DNA of 64,000 nucleotides from Oligoflexia bacterium. Lineage in GTDB: Bacteria; Bdellovibrionota; UBA1018. Location: positions 100,809-164,808 of the forward strand of contig CAVWVI010000005.1 of the NCBI GenBank assembly GCA_963758495.1, given 5' to 3'. A program made the position numbers. The stretch's first letter is position 1; each line of letters starts with the position of its first letter. Of the stretch, positions 1 through 12,000 are shown one piece after another.

Positions 1-3000
1 GTATCCTTTCAAATCTGGAGAAAAAGTCGGGATTTGTTCGCCAAACTGTTGAACAAAAGGAGAAAGGTTGTTTACGTGTTTTTGGTGATCGTTTTTAAAC
101 TCGGCCAGACGGGTTTTAACCGTTGGAACGTCGGTTTTTTCGATCGCCTGCTCGTATGCATGGATTGCATCAATATCAAGCTGCACTAAGTTTTTTAGTT
201 TTTTTCCTAATTCAGAATTTTCCATTTGTCTCTCCTTAGAAGGTATGTTTTGTAATTTATATCGCAAATTCTGTGCCTCAAGTTAGCTTGGGGAGATTCT
301 CACTGGCAGTCGACTTGCCGAAGCTAACACCAGCAATTGAATGAAGATTAATACTACGAAGGGTACAAGGAACTGCGTCCCCGAGATGGGCCCGACGATG
401 GGCCCAGGGATGGAGTGAGTAGCCATTGAAAGAGAAACTGTAAGGGCGATTACGGTTGTCGCAAGGGGGCCGCCGAGCCTTTGAACAATATTGACTGCTG
501 TTGTTGCAACACTGAGTTTGGCTTTTGGGATTGAAGAATACGCGGCTGCAATCGAGGGGATGCCGGTCGCACCTTGACCGGCACCGCGAGCGAGTAGGGA
601 AGCCATCACCCAACCGGGCGACATCTGGTTTTGAGCCATGTACACGAAGGGAAGCGTTCCCAAGATGTTGAGAATTACTCCACCCGAGGACACGGCACGA
701 CATCCGAACGTATCTGTTAAAAATCCCATAAGAGGATACACACACATCATCCCGACTCCCATGGGTGCAAACATCCACCCCACTTGTTCTGCCGTCAGCC
801 CACATCCAGTCGTCAAATAAAGGGGAATCAGAAACTGCCCCGCATACATAATTCCATTGGTGAGAAATTGGGTAATCGCTGCCGTGGAGAAAATTCGGTT
901 TCTAAACAGTCCGAGATCAACTAATGCGGCCTCTTCCTTTCGATTCGCGTGCCCTATAAAAATACCGATCAGAATGATTCCTGATAGAAGAAACCTCATT
1001 CCGTTACCCTGAGAGAACTCCTCAATCCCGTAAAGGAGACAAGCAAGCCCCGGAGAAAGCGTAAAGAAGCCTAAAAAATCAAAAGGGCGTCTTTGGAGGG
1101 TGGCTTCGTCGCTGGGTAGAAGGAAAGCAGCCAAAGTCACAGCCAAAATTCCAACCGGCAGATTGATATAAAAGAGCCACGGCCAACTAGCGTATTTTAA
1201 AATTGCGCCCGCTACAAGCGGTCCCACGGTAGGAGCGATTAAAATAGGTACAGATGCGTAGCCAATGGCTCTTGCCATCTGGTTCCCTGCCGCCCTCGCT
1301 AACATCATCTGAGTCAAGGGAGCCAGCAATCCACCCGCCATTCCTTGAAGCACACGAAAACAGATCAGCTCATTCATCGTATGTGCAGCACCACAAAGAA
1401 GGGAGGTGAGTGTGAACGCGGAGAAACAGCCTAGATACAGTCGCTTTGCTCCCAGCCAATCTACGATCCAACTGTTGAGCGGCAACATGAGAGCGAGTGC
1501 TAGCAAATAACCACTCATGATCCACTGCGCTGATGCGATCGAGGAATGAAGATCCTGGCGTATAGCAGAAAGCGAGACATTCACGACTGTCGAGTCCAAC
1601 TGAGTCATGAATGGCCCCAGCAATACAACAGCGATGACTCTCCAAACTTTCGGATCAAGGCCTTTGGATATCAATATTTTACTCCGCAGCCGTAAGGGTG
1701 TGTGGACGGATGAGTCACTATTTGATGATCGTCCATACCCATTTGATTAGGAAGCACTTTATTTCGGAAAGGAGGGCGATCTTGCTCGTATCGCAAAGAC
1801 AATCAAATATTTTCCTATTGAAAGGAGAACTACTTTTTGGTACATAACACAACGCGTTAAATACCTGCCTGCTTAGTTATTCTTCCTGTTGATTGACTTT
1901 TAACGCAACAGGAGAATGGTATGAGAAAACAAGCATTAAGTCCCTTTTTATTGATCCTTTCACTTTTCATCAATCTGACGTCGGTTTTGGCTGATGATGG
2001 TCGCGTAGGGGACATTCAATATTCGATTTTATCCGAAAATCAGTTCCAGCAGCTTCACGGCAAAGAATGGGAACTCTTGCGTGGACAGGAGGTTCCTTGG
2101 GACTCGGAACTGAGGAATTTCTGGACAGAAGCTCATCTTCCCGATGCTCGTGGAGTTTTTTTAAGATCTGCCAACCATGAGCGTCCTCGAGACGAGGGAA
2201 ATCCTGACGGGAATTTGCCGATAGGAACTTATCGAGGAGATATCTTTAAGAGGCATGACCACTCCGGATGGACAGGAGAAGATACTCCCGACCACACTCA
2301 CGGTCATTCTCACCCGGGGGTGCACGGCAACGGGGGCTATGATAATGGAAGCAAAGCCGGTGCCCATTGGCATGGCGCTCAGACCCGGGGGGCTTCCAAT
2401 CGGCATAAGCACTCAATCCCTCATGATGGTGGGGAAGAAACTCGCCCTAGAAACATCACCGTCAACGCTTTTATTAAAATAAAGGAAACACCCAAAGCAG
2501 CTCCCGCTCCCCGAGCTGAAGCACAGACTCAGTGGTCCCAAGAACAAATCACTCAACTCCTCAATATGCCTGAGTTTAAAAATGCTTTGGCTGATGCACT
2601 TCAAAACGCTCGAAGGAATAACAAGTAAAAAGGGAGACTTCTATGCTCTTCCCTAAAATGCAAAATCGTTGGACTGCCTCATCAAGACTTGCCCGGCTTC
2701 TCGTGATTGCCAACGTTGCCCATTTTGCACTCGTTGTTCAATCCGTGACTGTAAAGGCACAGGATTCTCAAGTCTTAGAGGTAGAAGTGAGTCAGAGGTC
2801 TGGATCGACTCAGAAATGGAATTTCCCCTGTAATAATGACGGAAGTGTATCCCAAACTGGAACTAGGCTCGATCAAAATAGCGAAGTTAAGGCTGTTTGG
2901 GATGAGTCCTGTAGCAAGGTCACTCTCCAGGGTCAGTCAGGTGAAATTGGGAAGAAGCAAAAAAAATCAGCTTCCCAAATTCAAAAATTAACGGTGAGAT

Positions 3001-9000: not shown

Positions 9001-12000
9001 TGCGGTGTGTACTTGTTTCTTAGAAAATTTAATCAATTATGCTTCTAATGGAAGAATACCCTACGAAAGTTTTGTCCCACTTCTTGGGCCTAAGTCCGTG
9101 GAGTACTGCAAGGGATGGGACGAATTTACTGGGGTAAAAACTCCAGGATTATGGAAAAATGAAGAGCCTGACTTTAGTCGAAGATTCAATGTGATCAGTG
9201 ATGCTGAAGCTATGTCCATTATTAAAGCAATCAAAAATCATGAGTACAGCACTAAAAGTGAGGAAGAAGAGAAAATTAAACTACTTAGTGCAATTTTCCC
9301 TGGTATATTAAATCTCTTATTTTACGATCCACGTAAATTAACTCCGGATCAAATTTTAAAGGAAGTTAAAAAAAATATTCCAAAATAATTACCTATTTAC
9401 ATTTTGGAATCCTCTGTTGCTAGATAACTTGGAAATTCGATTCACACAGTCTCCTATTCGAGGTACATTCCTTGGAACGTCCTCAGTTTGCAAGCTTCGC
9501 TTGAACCAAAAACTTCACGCCTCATTCTCCTATGAGACCTTTTGTCAAGGGGGGCTCTCAACTTTCTGAAGTAAAAACTGGGGTGGAAAAATTAAAAATA
9601 ATCGATACGCTTACTCCTGAAAAAGCCAGAGAGACCCTGGAGCAGGCAGGATTCAATAGTAAAGGTCCAAGAACTGCCGGTGGCTGGGAAACATTTAAAC
9701 ATCCTGATGGCTCAAAAGTGGATATTGGGCCAGGTGGAAGAGTTGTAAGGACTCAGGCACCTAAATATGGACCCAAAGGTAGTAGAATTAATAAGGGCCA
9801 AAGGGTCGACAGCAGGGGCAGCGAAATTGATCGGGACCTTCCCCACGACCAACATCCAAAAGAAACGCTTTCTAAGTGGTAAGGAGAATTTTATGACTAC
9901 TGAACTAGAAAATTATCTTTTTAACAGTGATGGTACCCACGCCCTAATCTCAGTTGTATTTAAGAAAAATCAACTTGAATTAAAAATAGCTCCTTGGACA
10001 AATCTTTCAAAAGTGAAAACTTTTTTGTTTGAAAATGTTAAAACAGAGTCTGCTGTAGAACCTTCTACTGATGAATTGCCCTTTGATATTATTGGAGTGG
10101 ATAGTACCAAACTTAGTCCCAGTTTATGGAAGATTTGCATCCATTGTTCCGAAAATGAGTATCTGTTCCAAAGTCAGTGGCCAATCCGAATTTAGCCTCA
10201 AAGCCTGTTTTGCTTGCTCCTCGGAAAATCCGAGGAGTCGGAGCTGGAGGGGCGATAGTTTCTTAATTTATTATTTTATTTATATGACCCTTTCTTGACA
10301 TTGGGTTCAATAGTTCGATTCACACAGTCTCCTATTCGAGGTACGTTCCTTGGAGCGTCCTCAGTTTACAAGCTTCGCTTGAATCAAAAAAATCACGCCC
10401 CATTCTGCAGGCCGTACCCAAATAGTGAGAGTACAGAATCACGCAACGAGGTCGTGACAAGTTCAGCAGTCACATGAATCAATGCCATTGCTAATCGGAA
10501 TTACTTTTCCTATCGCAAACAACGAGCCCTAGACTGCCAAACAAACCTCATATTTCTTTTCATTCTTTATCATCGAATAGATTCTACAGATCAGCTTTCT
10601 TGCTACGGCAACGATCGCCTTCTTCTTGCTCCCTGATTGCCTGGAGATCCGTTCAAAAAATAATTTCATTTTTTCGTCTTTGCCGACGAGATACCAGGAA
10701 GCCTGTATCAGGTACATTCTCAAAGTAGGATTCCCCTGACCTGTAATACGCCCTCGGTGTACGCTATCGCCAGAAGAATACTCAGATGGGGTGAGTCCGA
10801 AGAATGCCGCCACTTGCTTCTCATTGCTAAACCTTCCCCAATCGCCAATTTCATAGGTTAAAGACGCTGCAATGAGAGGGCCTATGCCCGGCACTGATTC
10901 GATGATTTGAAAATTCTTACTAAATCTACCTTCCTTGATTTTTAGATATTCGTTCTCCAGTTCTTTAAGCTGCTTATTTATCAATTCAATTTCTTCCAAA
11001 AACAATTTGATTGAGAGTTTCACCATCGAAGGCAGATTCATCTCAAGTATTGTGGCGGCAACCTGTTTACTGATGCCTCTGGTATTCAAATGAACACCGT
11101 TAAGCATGAGAAGCCCTTTTATTTGATTAATTGCCCTGGCTCTTTTAATGATAATTTGCTGCCTTGTGCGAAGTATTTGCCTGAGATTGAGTTGTTCCGG
11201 CGACGGAACGAATATTCCTTTCAATAGCCCTTTACTTAAAAAACTTGCCAATTTAAGACTATCGCGCCGATCTGTTTTTACCTTGTCGCCAGACATAATA
11301 GGCATCTTTGAAGGTGGGGTCACGATATTCTTGACTCCTATTGAATCCAGCTGATAGTGCAGATGAAACCCAGAAAATCCCGCCTCGTAAACCGAAAAAA
11401 TTTTCATATCCGCATATCGATGCAAAATCTTCCTGAGCTGCTCAAAATCTGACTTCAGCGTGAATCTCCCGATTGTTTGATCACAGTGAAGGAGGCAAAC
11501 ACTCCAGCTGGCTTTATGGACATCAATACCCACAAAAATGGGTTGTGCCAAATCTAGAGTTATTTTAGTATTGTGCTTCGCCATGGTAGAGCCCTTTCTT
11601 TAAAAAAACGTTAGGGATGGGAATTACCATGGTGATCGATCTACGCTCAATGGGATCGGTCATACGAATTCCTTTTTCTTAGGAGGTAACCTAACAAGAT
11701 CAAATTTTTATCCCCATCACCTGATACTTTGAATCGCTTCAATTCGGCCATAAGGTCTGCATAGTAACTGCGGGGCAGGCACAAGGGAAAGAGTGGGAAA
11801 TAAATAACTCCGATAAGGTTGTCGTACATCCTGATTCTAGGATAGGTAAAATTGAAAGAGACCCACATACCGGACTTTGGTGGTCAAAAGATAAGGCAGG
11901 TCATGGAGGGTCAAAGTGGAAGGTTTTCAAACAAAATGGGAATAAGCTGGAATGGATAAAAGATGCCGACGAATATGGTGACTATTTGGATGGAAAGCAC

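What a model noticed while it worked through the whole genome (the two positions that open the first line are those of the whole stretch)
1921..9388. Rare giant Sec-exported polymorphic toxins, each led by a conserved His-rich 235-aa exported protein
Two near-identical loci (C5:102729-110196, g03339-g03342; C1:67206-74173, g00062-g00065) encode a 235-aa exported protein followed by a ~1900-aa signal-peptide protein whose first 1800 aa are 93-99% identical between the loci while the last ~100 aa and the downstream small genes differ (Ntox21 + DUF3885 in one, another end + DUF7674 in the other); two more diverged loci (g01664-g01665, g02339-g02337) keep the small gene in front of a 900-970-aa protein. 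I read these as contact-dependent polymorphic toxin systems with swappable toxin-immunity tips, exported without T5SS/T6SS/T7SS partners, the small His-rich protein being a dedicated helper. New would be a toxin-delivery family that is almost [...]
Evidence so far: BLAST between paralogs: g00062/g03339 92% id; g00063 = g03340 residues 1-683 (98.5%); g00064 residues 1-1053 = g03340 753-1802 (93-94%), ends unrelated; orphan fragment g00066 matches g03340 1762-1798; small proteins g01664, g02339 34-41% id to g00062. In C1 the large gene is called in two pieces (g00063, g00064), probably a sequencing frameshift. Pfam: Ntox21 at g00064 1078-1144 (7.6e-27), DUF3885 in g00065, DUF7674 in g03342; otherwise only two sub-threshold hits (DUF1351, DUF1836, E 0.006-0.01) in the 17 proteins of the four loci that were scanned. 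HMMER over 1.8 billion representatives with g00063: only 41 hits at E<=1e-3, 10 at 1e-30, mostly 1300-1900 aa. The four small proteins share 4 [...]
(Added by a program. Inside this text positions count along the whole contig: contig position 100,809 is position 1 of the stretch shown here. "Call 12" and the like, gene names such as g00115 and contig names such as C1 are that model's own, and its searches are not shown. The text may have been shortened before it was handed on; [...] marks where a part breaks off. The agent that wrote the report below was given it as the finding of a first reader that could run no searches.)

Follow-up and report, generated by a model that had tools for sequence, protein, structure and literature searches.

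The report
CdiA-like toxin with phage-fibre-tip partner
A predatory-type bacterium carries two copies of a rare gene pair: a giant surface toxin built like the contact-killing CdiA proteins but with no recognisable export partner, always preceded by a small secreted protein that resembles the cell-binding tip of a phage T4 tail fibre.

Summary
Window 1921-9388 encodes a 235-aa exported protein, a 1918-aa signal-peptide protein and two small cytoplasmic proteins. A second copy lies on contig C1.

The giant is a polymorphic toxin, but not of a wholly new kind. Its predicted N-terminus is closest in fold to the secretion domains of two-partner-secretion (TPS) proteins. Residues ~1410-1705 are a divergent DUF637 plus VENN-type pre-toxin module, ending in NAIDNN. 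Relatives carry other toxin tips (Ntox21, EndoU, PT-HINT). It is therefore CdiA-like.

Two things are unusual:
- No CdiB/TpsB gene lies in any locus, and none scores over the ShlB cut-off in the six genomes searched.
- The small His-rich protein is a homologue of the receptor-binding (collar/head) domain of the phage T4 short tail fibre gp12, and it keeps gp12's zinc-binding HxH motif. It lies 6-57 nt upstream of the giant in 8 of 8 loci whose 5' end is visible.

I read the small protein as a receptor-binding tip supplied in trans. That role and the export route are inferred.

The two "diverged" loci hold unrelated large proteins.

Verdict: a new variant of a known kind; interest 0.62.

The parts
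1921..2628 (+). Small exported protein (235 aa, P0001). It has a signal peptide (~1-24), a gp12-like collar plus His-rich head domain (~28-190, with HxH at 112-114) and a helical C-terminal tail (~205-235).
   Evidence: ORF. A profile of 22 relatives matches the T4 gp12 receptor-binding domain 1ocy at E 8.8e-7 and the short tail fibre 9cuy at 8.5e-6. In a fold search of 48,161 chains the top 5 are phage fibre tips (gp12 Z 6.2-6.4; the next unrelated chain Z 3.4). All 7 of 7 longer relatives carry Pfam Collar PF07484.
2643..8399 (+). Giant polymorphic toxin (1918 aa, P0002), CdiA-like in its build.
2643..2759 (+). Signal peptide of the giant (residues 1-39; hydrophobic core 16-38; a ...VKA/QD cleavage-type site).
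   Evidence: Read from the sequence. Hydropathy peak. Predicted helix 10-31.
2772..4052 (+). N-terminal right-handed beta-helix (residues 44-470), closest in predicted fold to TPS secretion domains.
   Evidence: AF2 pLDDT is above 90 for residues 175-470. VIA-align: EtpA secretion domain Z 21.2 (rmsd 3.0, 262 aligned, model residues 44-379); HMW1 secretion domain Z 21.1; HxuA Z 17.9 and 16.8; FHA Z 12.8; the best unrelated beta-helix Z 16.6. There is no support at the sequence level.
4230..4892 (+). Second beta-helical segment (residues 530-750), following a low-confidence helical insert (472-528).
5130..5852 (+). Mixed alpha/beta middle domain (residues 830-1070). It is the best-conserved part among distant relatives. 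Its role is unknown.
   Evidence: Secondary structure. Invariant columns 819-995. phmmer matches over 763-1380 to P0065, P0076 and P0077 (E 1e-30 to 1e-43).
5880..6842 (+). Beta-strand-rich region (residues 1080-1400) ahead of the pre-toxin module. It stands where FHA-2 stands in CdiA (position only).
   Evidence: Strands 1079-1181 in the model. Two distant relatives carry Fil_haemagg_2 just before their DUF637 domain.
6870..7757 (+). Gly/Ala-rich pre-toxin module (residues 1410-1705): divergent DUF637 (~1450-1610) and PT-VENN-like (~1666-1707). It ends in NAIDNN (residues 1700-1705, window 7740-7757).
   Evidence: phmmer of residues 1381-1720 found 118 proteins at E<=1e-3. Of 22 long distant ones, 19 carry DUF637 and 6 carry PT-VENN. 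NAIDNN aligns with NAVENN of P0059.
7758..8033 (+). Conserved first half of the C-terminal region (residues 1706-1797). It is shared by both paralogs, the C1 orphan module and P0028. It is a recombination handle and possibly an entry domain.
8034..8399 (+). Variable toxin tip (residues 1798-1918), unclassified.
   Evidence: Identity to the paralog collapses here. No Pfam match. PDB gave only a chance repeat match. The Atlas gave only leads: Ntox37 0.89 and Tox-HNH-EHHH 0.87.
8412..8732 (+). 106-aa cytoplasmic protein (P0003) directly after the toxin; the candidate cognate immunity protein.
   Evidence: Position and lack of a signal peptide. No family match.
8729..9388 (+). 219-aa DUF7674 protein (P0004); a second immunity-type gene, possibly an orphan.
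   Evidence: DUF7674 1.5e-8; Colicin_Pyocin immunity 0.006, below its cut-off. A 45% identical homologue follows a PT-TG toxin in L009, whose tip is unrelated to this one.

Best explanation
The locus is an operon for a contact-dependent polymorphic toxin of CdiA-like build, combined with a receptor-binding protein of phage origin.

Shown by search, alignment or fold prediction:
- The giant has a signal peptide and then a beta-helical N-terminus whose predicted fold is closest to TPS secretion domains. More beta-helix follows, then a conserved alpha/beta domain and a beta-rich stretch.
- A divergent DUF637/VENN-type pre-toxin module ends in NAIDNN.
- A conserved ~90-residue stretch follows, and then a ~120-residue tip that is exchanged between copies.
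- Immunity-type genes follow the giant, and the C1 locus keeps a displaced orphan tip.
- The small protein is a homologue of the collar/head receptor-binding domain of the T4 short tail fibre gp12. It keeps the HxH pair that binds zinc on gp12's three-fold axis.
- It carries a ~40-residue helical tail, seen in 9 of the 10 Oligoflexia/Bdellovibrionia-type copies whose end could be read and in none of the 5 readable copies from other phyla.
- It always sits just upstream of the giant.

Inferred:
- Both proteins cross the inner membrane by Sec.
- The giant is threaded to the cell surface through an Omp85-type or unknown channel, not through a dedicated CdiB.
- The small protein trimerises around a metal ion, docks on the giant through its helical tail, and binds a surface glycan such as LPS on the target cell. 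It would thus supply in trans what the internal receptor-binding domain supplies in E. coli CdiA.
- After contact the C-terminal region is released near the NAIDNN motif and the tip, probably a nuclease, enters the target. Cells that carry the immunity protein survive.
- Targets could be prey or rival predators.
For: Polymorphic toxin:
- The tips differ between the paralogs from residue ~1800 on.
- Among the 7 full-length relatives, tips include Ntox21, EndoU PF14436 and PT-HINT PF07591.
- Immunity-type neighbours are DUF3885, DUF7674 and DUF6228/WapI-like.
- The C1 locus holds an orphan tip that shares the linker.

CdiA-like:
- VIA-align Z 21.2 and 21.1 to the EtpA and HMW1 secretion domains, starting at model residue 43-44, against Z 16.6 for the best unrelated beta-helix.
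- Pre-toxin region: 118 relatives. Of 22 long distant ones scanned, 19 carry DUF637 (16 over the cut-off) and 6 carry PT-VENN. One (P0104) is a canonical ESPR+TPS+DUF637+VENN protein. It aligns to the giant at conditional E 1.5e-15.

gp12-like small protein:
- Profile E 8.8e-7 to 8e-5 against four short-tail-fibre chains.
- Best Foldseek hit is gp12, E 4.5e-3.
- In the unbiased fold search the 5 best of 48,161 chains are phage fibre tips.
- 7 of 7 longer relatives are Collar-domain tail fibres, E 3.9e-25 to 4.6e-5.
- H112 and H114 are conserved in at least 90% of 22 sequences. They align with gp12 His445/His447, the zinc ligands according to passages of PMC3004832.

Linkage:
- All 8 loci in which the giant's 5' end lies on the contig have the small gene upstream on the same strand. 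These are 2 in G000, 2 in G087, and 1 each in G201, G218, G272 and G320. Gaps are 6-57 nt by ORF calls.
- No other upstream gene is shared between loci.
- A paralogous small protein also heads loci of another build, one of which ends in a PT-TG toxin plus DUF7674.
- The tail motif ...PEF..A(L/V)... occurs in 6 of the 7 giant-linked copies, and L008 has a variant (PVF..AV). 4 of the 5 other-phylum copies whose end could be read stop right after the collar strand, and the fifth has a Pro-rich extension.
Against: - The TPS likeness rests on a predicted model only. Pfam TPS and ESPR do not match. A profile of the family hits no PDB sequence. hhalign to the TPS end of P0104 gives 0.1% probability. 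Beta-helices of unrelated families also score Z 14-16.6.
- No Pfam model matches the giant directly (E<=1). DUF637/VENN membership is transitive.
- No outer-membrane transporter was identified. The genome's three Omp85 proteins look like BamA/TamA types. The TamA-like one does not track the giant: it is present in 29 of 61 family genomes and missing from G087, G272, G017, G365 and G127.
- Nothing shows that the small protein binds the giant, forms a trimer or binds LPS. Its His-rich head folds poorly as a monomer (pLDDT below 50 for residues 94-176).
- The fold Z of 6.4 is by itself in the range of common arrangements.
- The activity of the window's tip is unknown.
- The eight syntenic loci come from six related genomes of one family, so they are not independent.
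Confidence: 0.5

Rival explanations
1. This is an ordinary CdiB/CdiA two-partner system. Its transporter gene lies elsewhere, is unassembled, or is too divergent to recognise. The small protein would then be a minor accessory, like BcpO or CdiC in other CDI loci (those names are recalled).
For: TPS-like predicted fold and a CdiA-type pre-toxin module. The genome is 92% complete. The TPS domain itself escapes Pfam, so a cognate TpsB might escape too. The ShlB search was not over its cut-off in any of the 14 control genomes (one sub-threshold match, Thermotoga), so its sensitivity is unproven.
Against: None of the 8 loci has an Omp85 gene nearby. No ShlB match over the cut-off in 6 of 6 giant-bearing genomes, which are 92-96% complete. 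The three Omp85 genes of this genome sit in BamA- or TamB-type contexts.
Confidence: 0.2
2. The small protein is a periplasmic folding or export helper for the large protein. It would not be part of the final weapon.
For: Strict gene order in front of different large exported proteins. Fibre proteins commonly need dedicated assembly factors (passages of PMC3004832).
Against: The domain it resembles is the receptor-binding end of a fibre, not a chaperone. The metal-binding HxH pair is kept, which fits a stable structural trimer.
Confidence: 0.12
3. The small protein is an independent adhesin or prey-recognition protein. It would be co-transcribed with the toxin for timing only, without physical coupling.
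For: Collar-type proteins occur widely next to unrelated large proteins in other phyla. Bdellovibrio uses phage-fibre-like adhesins for prey recognition (PMC10769870, abstract and passages).
Against: A helical tail is present in the copies that sit beside toxin-type loci, with a motif shared among the giant-linked ones. Intergenic gaps are 6-57 nt.
Confidence: 0.13
4. The giant is released as a soluble bacteriocin-like toxin, for example by type II secretion or lysis, and is not displayed for contact-dependent delivery.
For: No transporter was found. Only a Sec signal is evident.
Against: The build is that of surface-displayed CdiA-type filaments. No colicin-type lysis gene is apparent in the locus.
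Confidence: 0.05

Closest known systems
CdiA/CdiB contact-dependent growth inhibition (type Vb, two-partner secretion) systems
   Same: - A giant signal-peptide protein with a beta-helical N-terminus that is TPS-like by predicted fold.
- A DUF637/VENN-type pre-toxin module.
- Exchangeable C-terminal toxins with downstream immunity genes and an orphan tip.
- A C-terminal region with a conserved first half and a variable toxin half. The comparison with CdiA-CT entry domains is recalled, not tested.
   Different: - No cdiB/tpsB in the locus or recognisable in six genomes.
- No Pfam TPS, ESPR, Fil_haemagg, DUF637 or PT-VENN match on the protein itself.
- The motif reads IDNN.
- The tip swap point lies ~95 residues after the motif.
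- A gp12-like gene stands where E. coli loci have cdiB (that gene order is recalled).
Receptor-binding domain of the phage T4 short tail fibre gp12 (PDB 1ocy, 5iv5; Pfam Collar PF07484)
   Same: The sequence signature LPDxRGxFxR ... HxH ... ETRPxNI..N..IK is shared. The fold is shared for the confident parts of the model. The zinc-ligand histidines are kept.
   Different: The protein has no fibre shaft. It is a stand-alone secreted protein with a Sec signal and an added helical tail. It is encoded in a toxin locus, not in a phage. Pfam's Collar model matches only 1 of 22 members, at E 0.047.
Polymorphic toxin systems in general (Zhang, Aravind and colleagues; PMC4436062 seen as a search listing only)
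   Same: A modular N-terminal trafficking part, a pre-toxin module, a variable toxin tip, immunity genes and orphan cassettes.
   Different: I found no paper that links a tail-collar protein with such toxins: 0 papers for 'tail collar' + 'polymorphic toxin' and 0 for 'phage tail collar' + 'CdiA'.
Bdellovibrio MAT (mosaic adhesive trimeric) fibre proteins (PMC10769870)
   Same: Phage-fibre-derived adhesion modules in predatory bacteria of the same phylum.
   Different: MAT proteins are long fibres with the adhesive tip in the same chain. The paper's text holds neither 'collar' nor 'toxin'. Here the tip-like protein is separate and is paired with a toxin.

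Membership tests
CdiA / TpsA passenger (type Vb secretion) | N-terminal TPS secretion domain recognisable by sequence (Pfam PF05860) | tested here: not met
   No Pfam match at E<=1. No match in the genome, though that search matched in no control genome either. hhalign to the TPS end of P0104 gave probability 0.1%. The family profile hit no PDB sequence.
CdiA / TpsA passenger (type Vb secretion) | TPS-type fold at the N-terminus | tested here: met
   Predicted model only. EtpA secretion domain Z 21.2 (rmsd 3.0, 262 aligned) and HMW1 secretion domain Z 21.1 (rmsd 3.1, 266 aligned), starting at residue 43-44. The best unrelated beta-helix scores Z 16.6.
CdiA / TpsA passenger (type Vb secretion) | Cognate TpsB/CdiB transporter (ShlB-type barrel with POTRA), usually adjacent | tested here: not met
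   None in the 8 loci. ShlB PF03865 was over its cut-off in 0 of 6 giant-bearing genomes. The control genomes gave no over-cut-off match, so sensitivity is unproven. The Omp85 members of the own genome are BamA/TamA-like.
CdiA / TpsA passenger (type Vb secretion) | DUF637 and PT-VENN pre-toxin module ahead of the toxin | tested here: met
   Met by transitive homology, not by Pfam on the protein itself. phmmer E 8.8e-13 to P0059 (DUF637 2e-23, PT-VENN 6.2e-5). 19 of 22 distant relatives carry DUF637. NAIDNN aligns with NAVENN.
CdiA / TpsA passenger (type Vb secretion) | Filamentous haemagglutinin repeats (Fil_haemagg/Fil_haemagg_2) | tested here: inconclusive
   No Pfam match on the giant. A beta-helix is predicted. 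2 of 22 distant relatives have weak Fil_haemagg_2 matches.
Polymorphic toxin system | Variable C-terminal toxin on a conserved body, with an adjacent immunity gene and orphan cassettes | tested here: met
Phage tail collar / gp12 receptor-binding domain | Collar-domain sequence signature and fold | tested here: met
   Profile E 8.8e-7 to 1ocy. 7 of 7 longer relatives carry PF07484. The top 5 of 48,161 chains are phage fibre tips. Pfam Collar itself matches only 1 of 22 members, at E 0.047.
Phage tail collar / gp12 receptor-binding domain | HxH pair that binds a metal on the three-fold axis | tested here: met
   H112 and H114 are conserved in at least 90% of 22 sequences and align with gp12 His445/His447. 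All 17 locus copies have an HxH. Metal binding itself was not tested.
Phage tail collar / gp12 receptor-binding domain | Homotrimer; binding of LPS or another surface receptor | not tested
   No trimer prediction was run, because the one complex job went to the small-giant pair. Binding needs bench work.
Type VI secretion effector | T6SS core (Hcp) in the genome | tested here: not met
   PF05638 gave no match in the own genome. The control matched in E. coli.

The most novel reading that the evidence does not exclude
This would be a two-part contact weapon of predatory-type bacteria. A CdiA-like toxin filament reaches the surface without any dedicated CdiB-type transporter. It borrows its target recognition from a separate, phage-derived trimeric fibre tip (gp12-like) that docks through a helical tail. 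The same tip family would serve several unrelated toxin or large-protein scaffolds. Target range could then be changed by swapping a 235-aa gene, and the toxin by swapping a 120-residue tip.
Probability: 0.3. Interest if true: 0.8.

Novelty: new variant of a known kind. Interest (0 to 1): 0.62.

Why it matters
CDI-type toxins are defined by the CdiB/CdiA pair, with the receptor-binding domain built into CdiA. This family would break both rules.

If it is truly exported without a TpsB, it bears on the question of how very large beta-helical proteins cross an outer membrane.

If the gp12-like protein is the targeting subunit, it links phage receptor-binding modules with polymorphic toxins. I found no paper making that link.

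In a phylum of bacterial predators it could also be a prey-killing or predator-rivalry device. Its specificity determinant is small and would be easy to test.

Tried and rejected
- **Complex prediction.** Giant residues 40-760 with the mature small protein gave no verdict (scores 0.40, 0.07, 0.07; the mark is 0.32). This says nothing either way.
- **Homology of the diverged loci.** hhalign of the giant family against the 975-, 916- and 380-aa proteins gave probability 0.2-1.4%. hhalign of the 820-1400-aa family from other phyla against those proteins and the giant gave at best 34.7% over 31 columns.
- **TamA-like 606-aa Omp85 as dedicated transporter.** Rejected: it is present in 29 of 61 family genomes and missing from five giant carriers.
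- **Conserved upstream genes.** None is shared among the loci.
- **Toxin tip.** No Pfam match even at E<=10. The only PDB matches at E<=0.001 were designed beta-trefoil repeat proteins, taken as chance. Atlas scores were below 0.9 for named families. The tip has no likeness to the PT-TG toxin of L009.
- **Middle domain 800-1075.** The Atlas gave nothing usable.
- **Metagenome scan with the giant family.** Four near-identical loci, all cut before the gene's 5' end, so they add nothing on synteny.
- **Names for ten distant relatives.** Only one is named: a DUF637 protein from an alphaproteobacterial MAG.
- **Sequencing runs.** No RNA holder is listed, and DNA holders had only 0.05-0.14 of the sampled words, so no reads were laid. 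Whether the C1 frameshift is real stays open.
- **Promoter and terminator scan.** No more sites than in shuffled sequence.

Full report
**What is there.**

The + strand of the window carries four tightly spaced ORFs:
- 1921-2628: 235 aa, P0001.
- 2643-8399: 1918 aa, P0002.
- 8412-8732: 106 aa, P0003.
- 8729-9388: 219 aa, P0004.

A divergent MFS efflux gene lies upstream on the other strand, and an IS110 transposase lies downstream. Both P0001 and P0002 begin with Sec-type signal peptides. I judged this from the sequence, a hydropathy peak and predicted N-terminal helices. P0003 and P0004 have no signal peptide.

The window lies on contig C5 of a 3.66-Mb, five-contig genome that is 92% complete. 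Earlier notes of this scan place the genome in Bdellovibrionota. The nearest relatives of both proteins come from Bdellovibrionia and Oligoflexia MAGs, which agrees.

- tblastn finds a second locus on C1. Its small protein is 92.3% identical, and the first 683 residues of its giant are 98.5% identical.
- The rest of the C1 giant reads in another frame. One extra base relative to the window copy splits the gene.
- I could not tell whether that break is real. No sequencing run held enough of the stretch.
- The paralogs agree at 42-50 of 50 positions per window up to residue 1752, at 37 of 50 for 1753-1802, and then at 5, 13 and 2.
- The C1 tip is Ntox21 (7.6e-27) and is followed by DUF3885. The window tip has no family and is followed by P0003 and the DUF7674 protein P0004.
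- After the C1 immunity gene lies an orphan piece. It shares the linker 1745-1798 with the window's giant and then continues into a third, different tip.

**The giant is CdiA-like.**

No Pfam or NCBIfam model matches it, and a profile of the family hits no PDB sequence. Two lines of evidence nevertheless place it.

*First line: the pre-toxin region.*
- phmmer with residues 1381-1720 over 1.84 billion representatives found 118 proteins at E<=1e-3.
- I scanned 22 of the long, more distant ones of those 118 against Pfam.
- 19 carry DUF637 (16 over the cut-off) and 6 carry PT-VENN.
- Their tips include CDI_toxin_EC869_like, Tox-URI2, LHH, Colicin-DNase/WHH and Ntox35.
- One of them, P0104, is a canonical ESPR+TPS+DUF637+PT-VENN protein.
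- In the pairwise alignments the giant's NAIDNN (residues 1700-1705) lies on the NAVENN of P0059.

*Second line: the predicted fold.*
- An AlphaFold2 model of residues 1-1200 (18-row alignment; mean pLDDT 76.5; above 90 for residues 175-470) shows these parts: a beta-helix at 44-470, a low-confidence helical insert, a second beta-helix at 530-750, an alpha/beta domain at 830-1070, and beta strands from 1080 on.
- Foldseek's best rows were TPS passengers, but weak (HxuA, E 0.016).
- VIA-align on those rows gave the EtpA secretion domain Z 21.2 (rmsd 3.0, 262 aligned, model residues 44-379) and the HMW1 secretion domain Z 21.1.
- HxuA scored Z 17.9 and 16.8, and FHA scored Z 12.8.
- Unrelated beta-helices reached Z 16.6.
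- The likeness to TPS domains is therefore the best available match and begins right after the signal peptide.
- It rests on a model and has no sequence support.

The other full-length relatives end in EndoU, PT-HINT or unclassified tips after the same ...NAI(D/E)NN... boundary. One relative is followed by a DUF6228/WapI-like immunity gene.

Six further proteins of 1843-2228 aa share both the body (residues ~270-690 and 763-1380) and the pre-toxin module. Five of the six were in the Pfam scan, and none of those five has a Pfam TPS domain.

**No transporter is visible.**

- ShlB (PF03865), TPS and Hcp families have no match in this genome.
- ShlB is over its cut-off in 0 of 5 other giant-bearing genomes. 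Two sub-threshold matches lie in BamA-sized frames.
- These searches have weak controls: the ShlB search gave no over-cut-off match and the TPS search no match at all in the 14 control genomes. Absence is therefore not proven.
- The genome's three Omp85 genes are as follows. One sits in an 803-aa frame. One is an 864-aa protein with five POTRA repeats, behind a TamB gene. One is a 606-aa TamA-like protein.
- The TamA-like protein is present in 29 of 61 genomes of the family. It is missing from five giant carriers, so it is not a dedicated partner.
- No upstream gene is shared among the loci. The conserved unit starts with the small gene.

**The small protein is a phage fibre tip.**

- Its 22 relatives share LPDaRGVFLR ... 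HxH ... ETRPRNITVN.FIK.
- A profile of them matches the T4 gp12 receptor-binding domain at E 8.8e-7, another short tail fibre at 8.5e-6, and two further gp12 chains.
- The monomer model is confident only for the collar part and the C-terminal helices (mean pLDDT 63.8; below 50 for residues 94-176).
- Even so, an unbiased comparison with 48,161 chains ranks five phage fibre tips first: gp12 Z 6.2-6.4 with 28-33% identity, gp37 Z 5.6 and a cyanophage fibre Z 5.0. The next, unrelated chain scores Z 3.4.
- The best Foldseek hit is also gp12 (E 4.5e-3).
- All seven longer relatives found with the profile are tail fibres carrying Pfam Collar (E 3.9e-25 to 4.6e-5).
- Pfam's Collar model itself matches only 1 of 22 members, at E 0.047.
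- H112 and H114, conserved in at least 90% of the sequences, align with gp12 His445 and His447. According to passages of PMC3004832, those residues bind zinc on the three-fold axis.
- So the "His-rich" character is the head domain of a fibre tip.

**Linkage between the small gene and the giant.**

- In a sample of 401 genomes of the phylum, the small family occurs in 29 and the giant in 9. All 9 are in one family, 8 of its 57 other genomes.
- Every locus in which the giant's start lies on the contig has the small gene directly upstream. There are 8 such loci in 6 genomes.
- The named loci L004-L008 appear to come from these same genomes, judging by matching contig lengths and coordinates. I do not count them as independent.
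- The intergenic gaps are 6-57 nt.

**The small family also heads other loci.**

- On C4 (L002) and in L009 and L011 it precedes a chain of unrelated proteins. In L009 that chain ends in a PT-TG toxin plus a DUF7674 protein that is 45% identical to P0004.
- On C3 (L003) it precedes a 975-aa helical protein.
- None of these large proteins is homologous to the giant.
- In other phyla, collar-type small proteins lie next to a separate 820-1400-aa family.
- The copies were compared:
  - 4 of the 5 other-phylum copies whose end could be read stop right after the last collar strand, and the fifth carries a Pro-rich extension.
  - The Oligoflexia/Bdellovibrionia-type copies carry a tail of about 22-50 residues.
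  - The motif ...PEF..A(L/V)... is shared by 6 of the 7 giant-linked copies, with a variant in the seventh.
- This makes the tail the best candidate for a docking element. That is an inference. The one complex prediction gave no verdict.

**How it probably works.**

The parts shown by the searches, alignments and fold predictions are these:
- a polymorphic toxin locus;
- a CdiA-type pre-toxin module and a TPS-like predicted N-terminus;
- a gp12-type partner with a preserved metal site;
- a fixed gene order.

The rest is inferred:
- Both proteins are exported by Sec.
- The giant is displayed on the surface through a non-dedicated or unknown channel.
- The small protein forms a metal-bound trimer. 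It docks on the giant by its tail and binds a surface glycan of the target, a job that E. coli CdiA does with an internal domain (recalled).
- After contact the C-terminal region is released.
- The conserved stretch 1706-1797 is shared by three different tips. It may serve both as a recombination handle and as an entry domain, as in CdiA-CT regions (recalled).
- The tip kills unless P0003 or P0004 neutralises it.

The activity of the window's tip is unknown. A nuclease is only a lead. Whether the targets are prey or rival predators is open.

**Literature.**

- No paper in the library holds 'tail collar' with 'polymorphic toxin', or 'phage tail collar' with 'CdiA'.
- 17 papers hold 'Bdellovibrio' with 'polymorphic toxin'. 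The 15 listed show nothing on this family by title or abstract (listing only).
- The Bdellovibrio MAT fibre paper (PMC10769870, abstract and passages) is a precedent for phage-fibre-like adhesins in predators. It mentions neither collar domains nor toxins.
- PMC9111745 (passages) notes that CDI-like toxins occur in lineages that lack cdiB. Transporter-less CdiA-like proteins are therefore not unheard of.

**Verdict.**

The finding is real and rare. It is best filed as a new variant of CDI-type polymorphic toxin systems. It has two unusual features: no recognisable TpsB, and an obligatory phage-fibre-tip partner. The mechanism of both remains to be shown.

Noticed in passing
L012:7316-10423, L014:2555-5647, L013:9863-13464, L018:9878-13306, L010:9542-13190, L017:2667-7448, L015:3251-7968: In Bacteroidota, Acidobacteriota, a planctomycete (Ca. 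Uabimicrobium) and an unclassified MAG, a tail-less collar-type protein (146-291 aa) lies next to a mutually homologous, mostly helical protein of 820-1400 aa (blastp E 1e-5 to 1e-51 among them). This is a separate conserved two-gene module of unknown function.
   Followed up: partly
L002 (G000:C4:152000-168000), minus strand 2223-10303: A paralogous small collar gene heads a chain of 380-, 916-, 396-, 468- and 294-aa proteins. The 396-aa protein is 71% identical to the last 324 residues of the 916-aa one. Related chains occur in L009 and L011, and the L009 chain ends with a PT-TG toxin and a DUF7674 protein.
   Followed up: partly
L003 (G000:C3:1110000-1126000) 5709-9369: A fourth small collar gene is followed by a 975-aa helical signal-peptide protein with no recognised relatives. 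It shows only a 31-column hhalign match at 34.7% probability to the other-phylum family.
   Followed up: partly
window 10529-11584 (-): An IS110-family transposase (NCBIfam 4.3e-72) lies about 1.1 kb downstream of the toxin locus. Between them are short ORFs (9532-10477) with no family match. G+C falls from ~0.52 inside the giant's 3' part to ~0.38-0.41 over the tip and the downstream genes.
   Followed up: no
L001 (G000:C1) 12216-13947: The orphan toxin piece, which ends ...DFKFK, is followed by 113-, 94- and 138-aa ORFs without family matches. These are possibly orphan immunity genes.
   Followed up: no
proteins P0053-P0149: Of 22 long DUF637/VENN-type relatives from metagenomes, 21 lack a Pfam TPS domain. 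Six long relatives (five of these 22, plus P0145) share the giant's body. CdiA-like toxins without a recognisable TPS domain may be a wider class. Their gene neighbourhoods could not be examined.
   Followed up: partly
G365:C383:382-6399 (-): One family genome holds a giant-like match inside a 3541-aa open frame, almost twice the usual length. No small-gene match was found in that genome, which is 89% complete.
   Followed up: no
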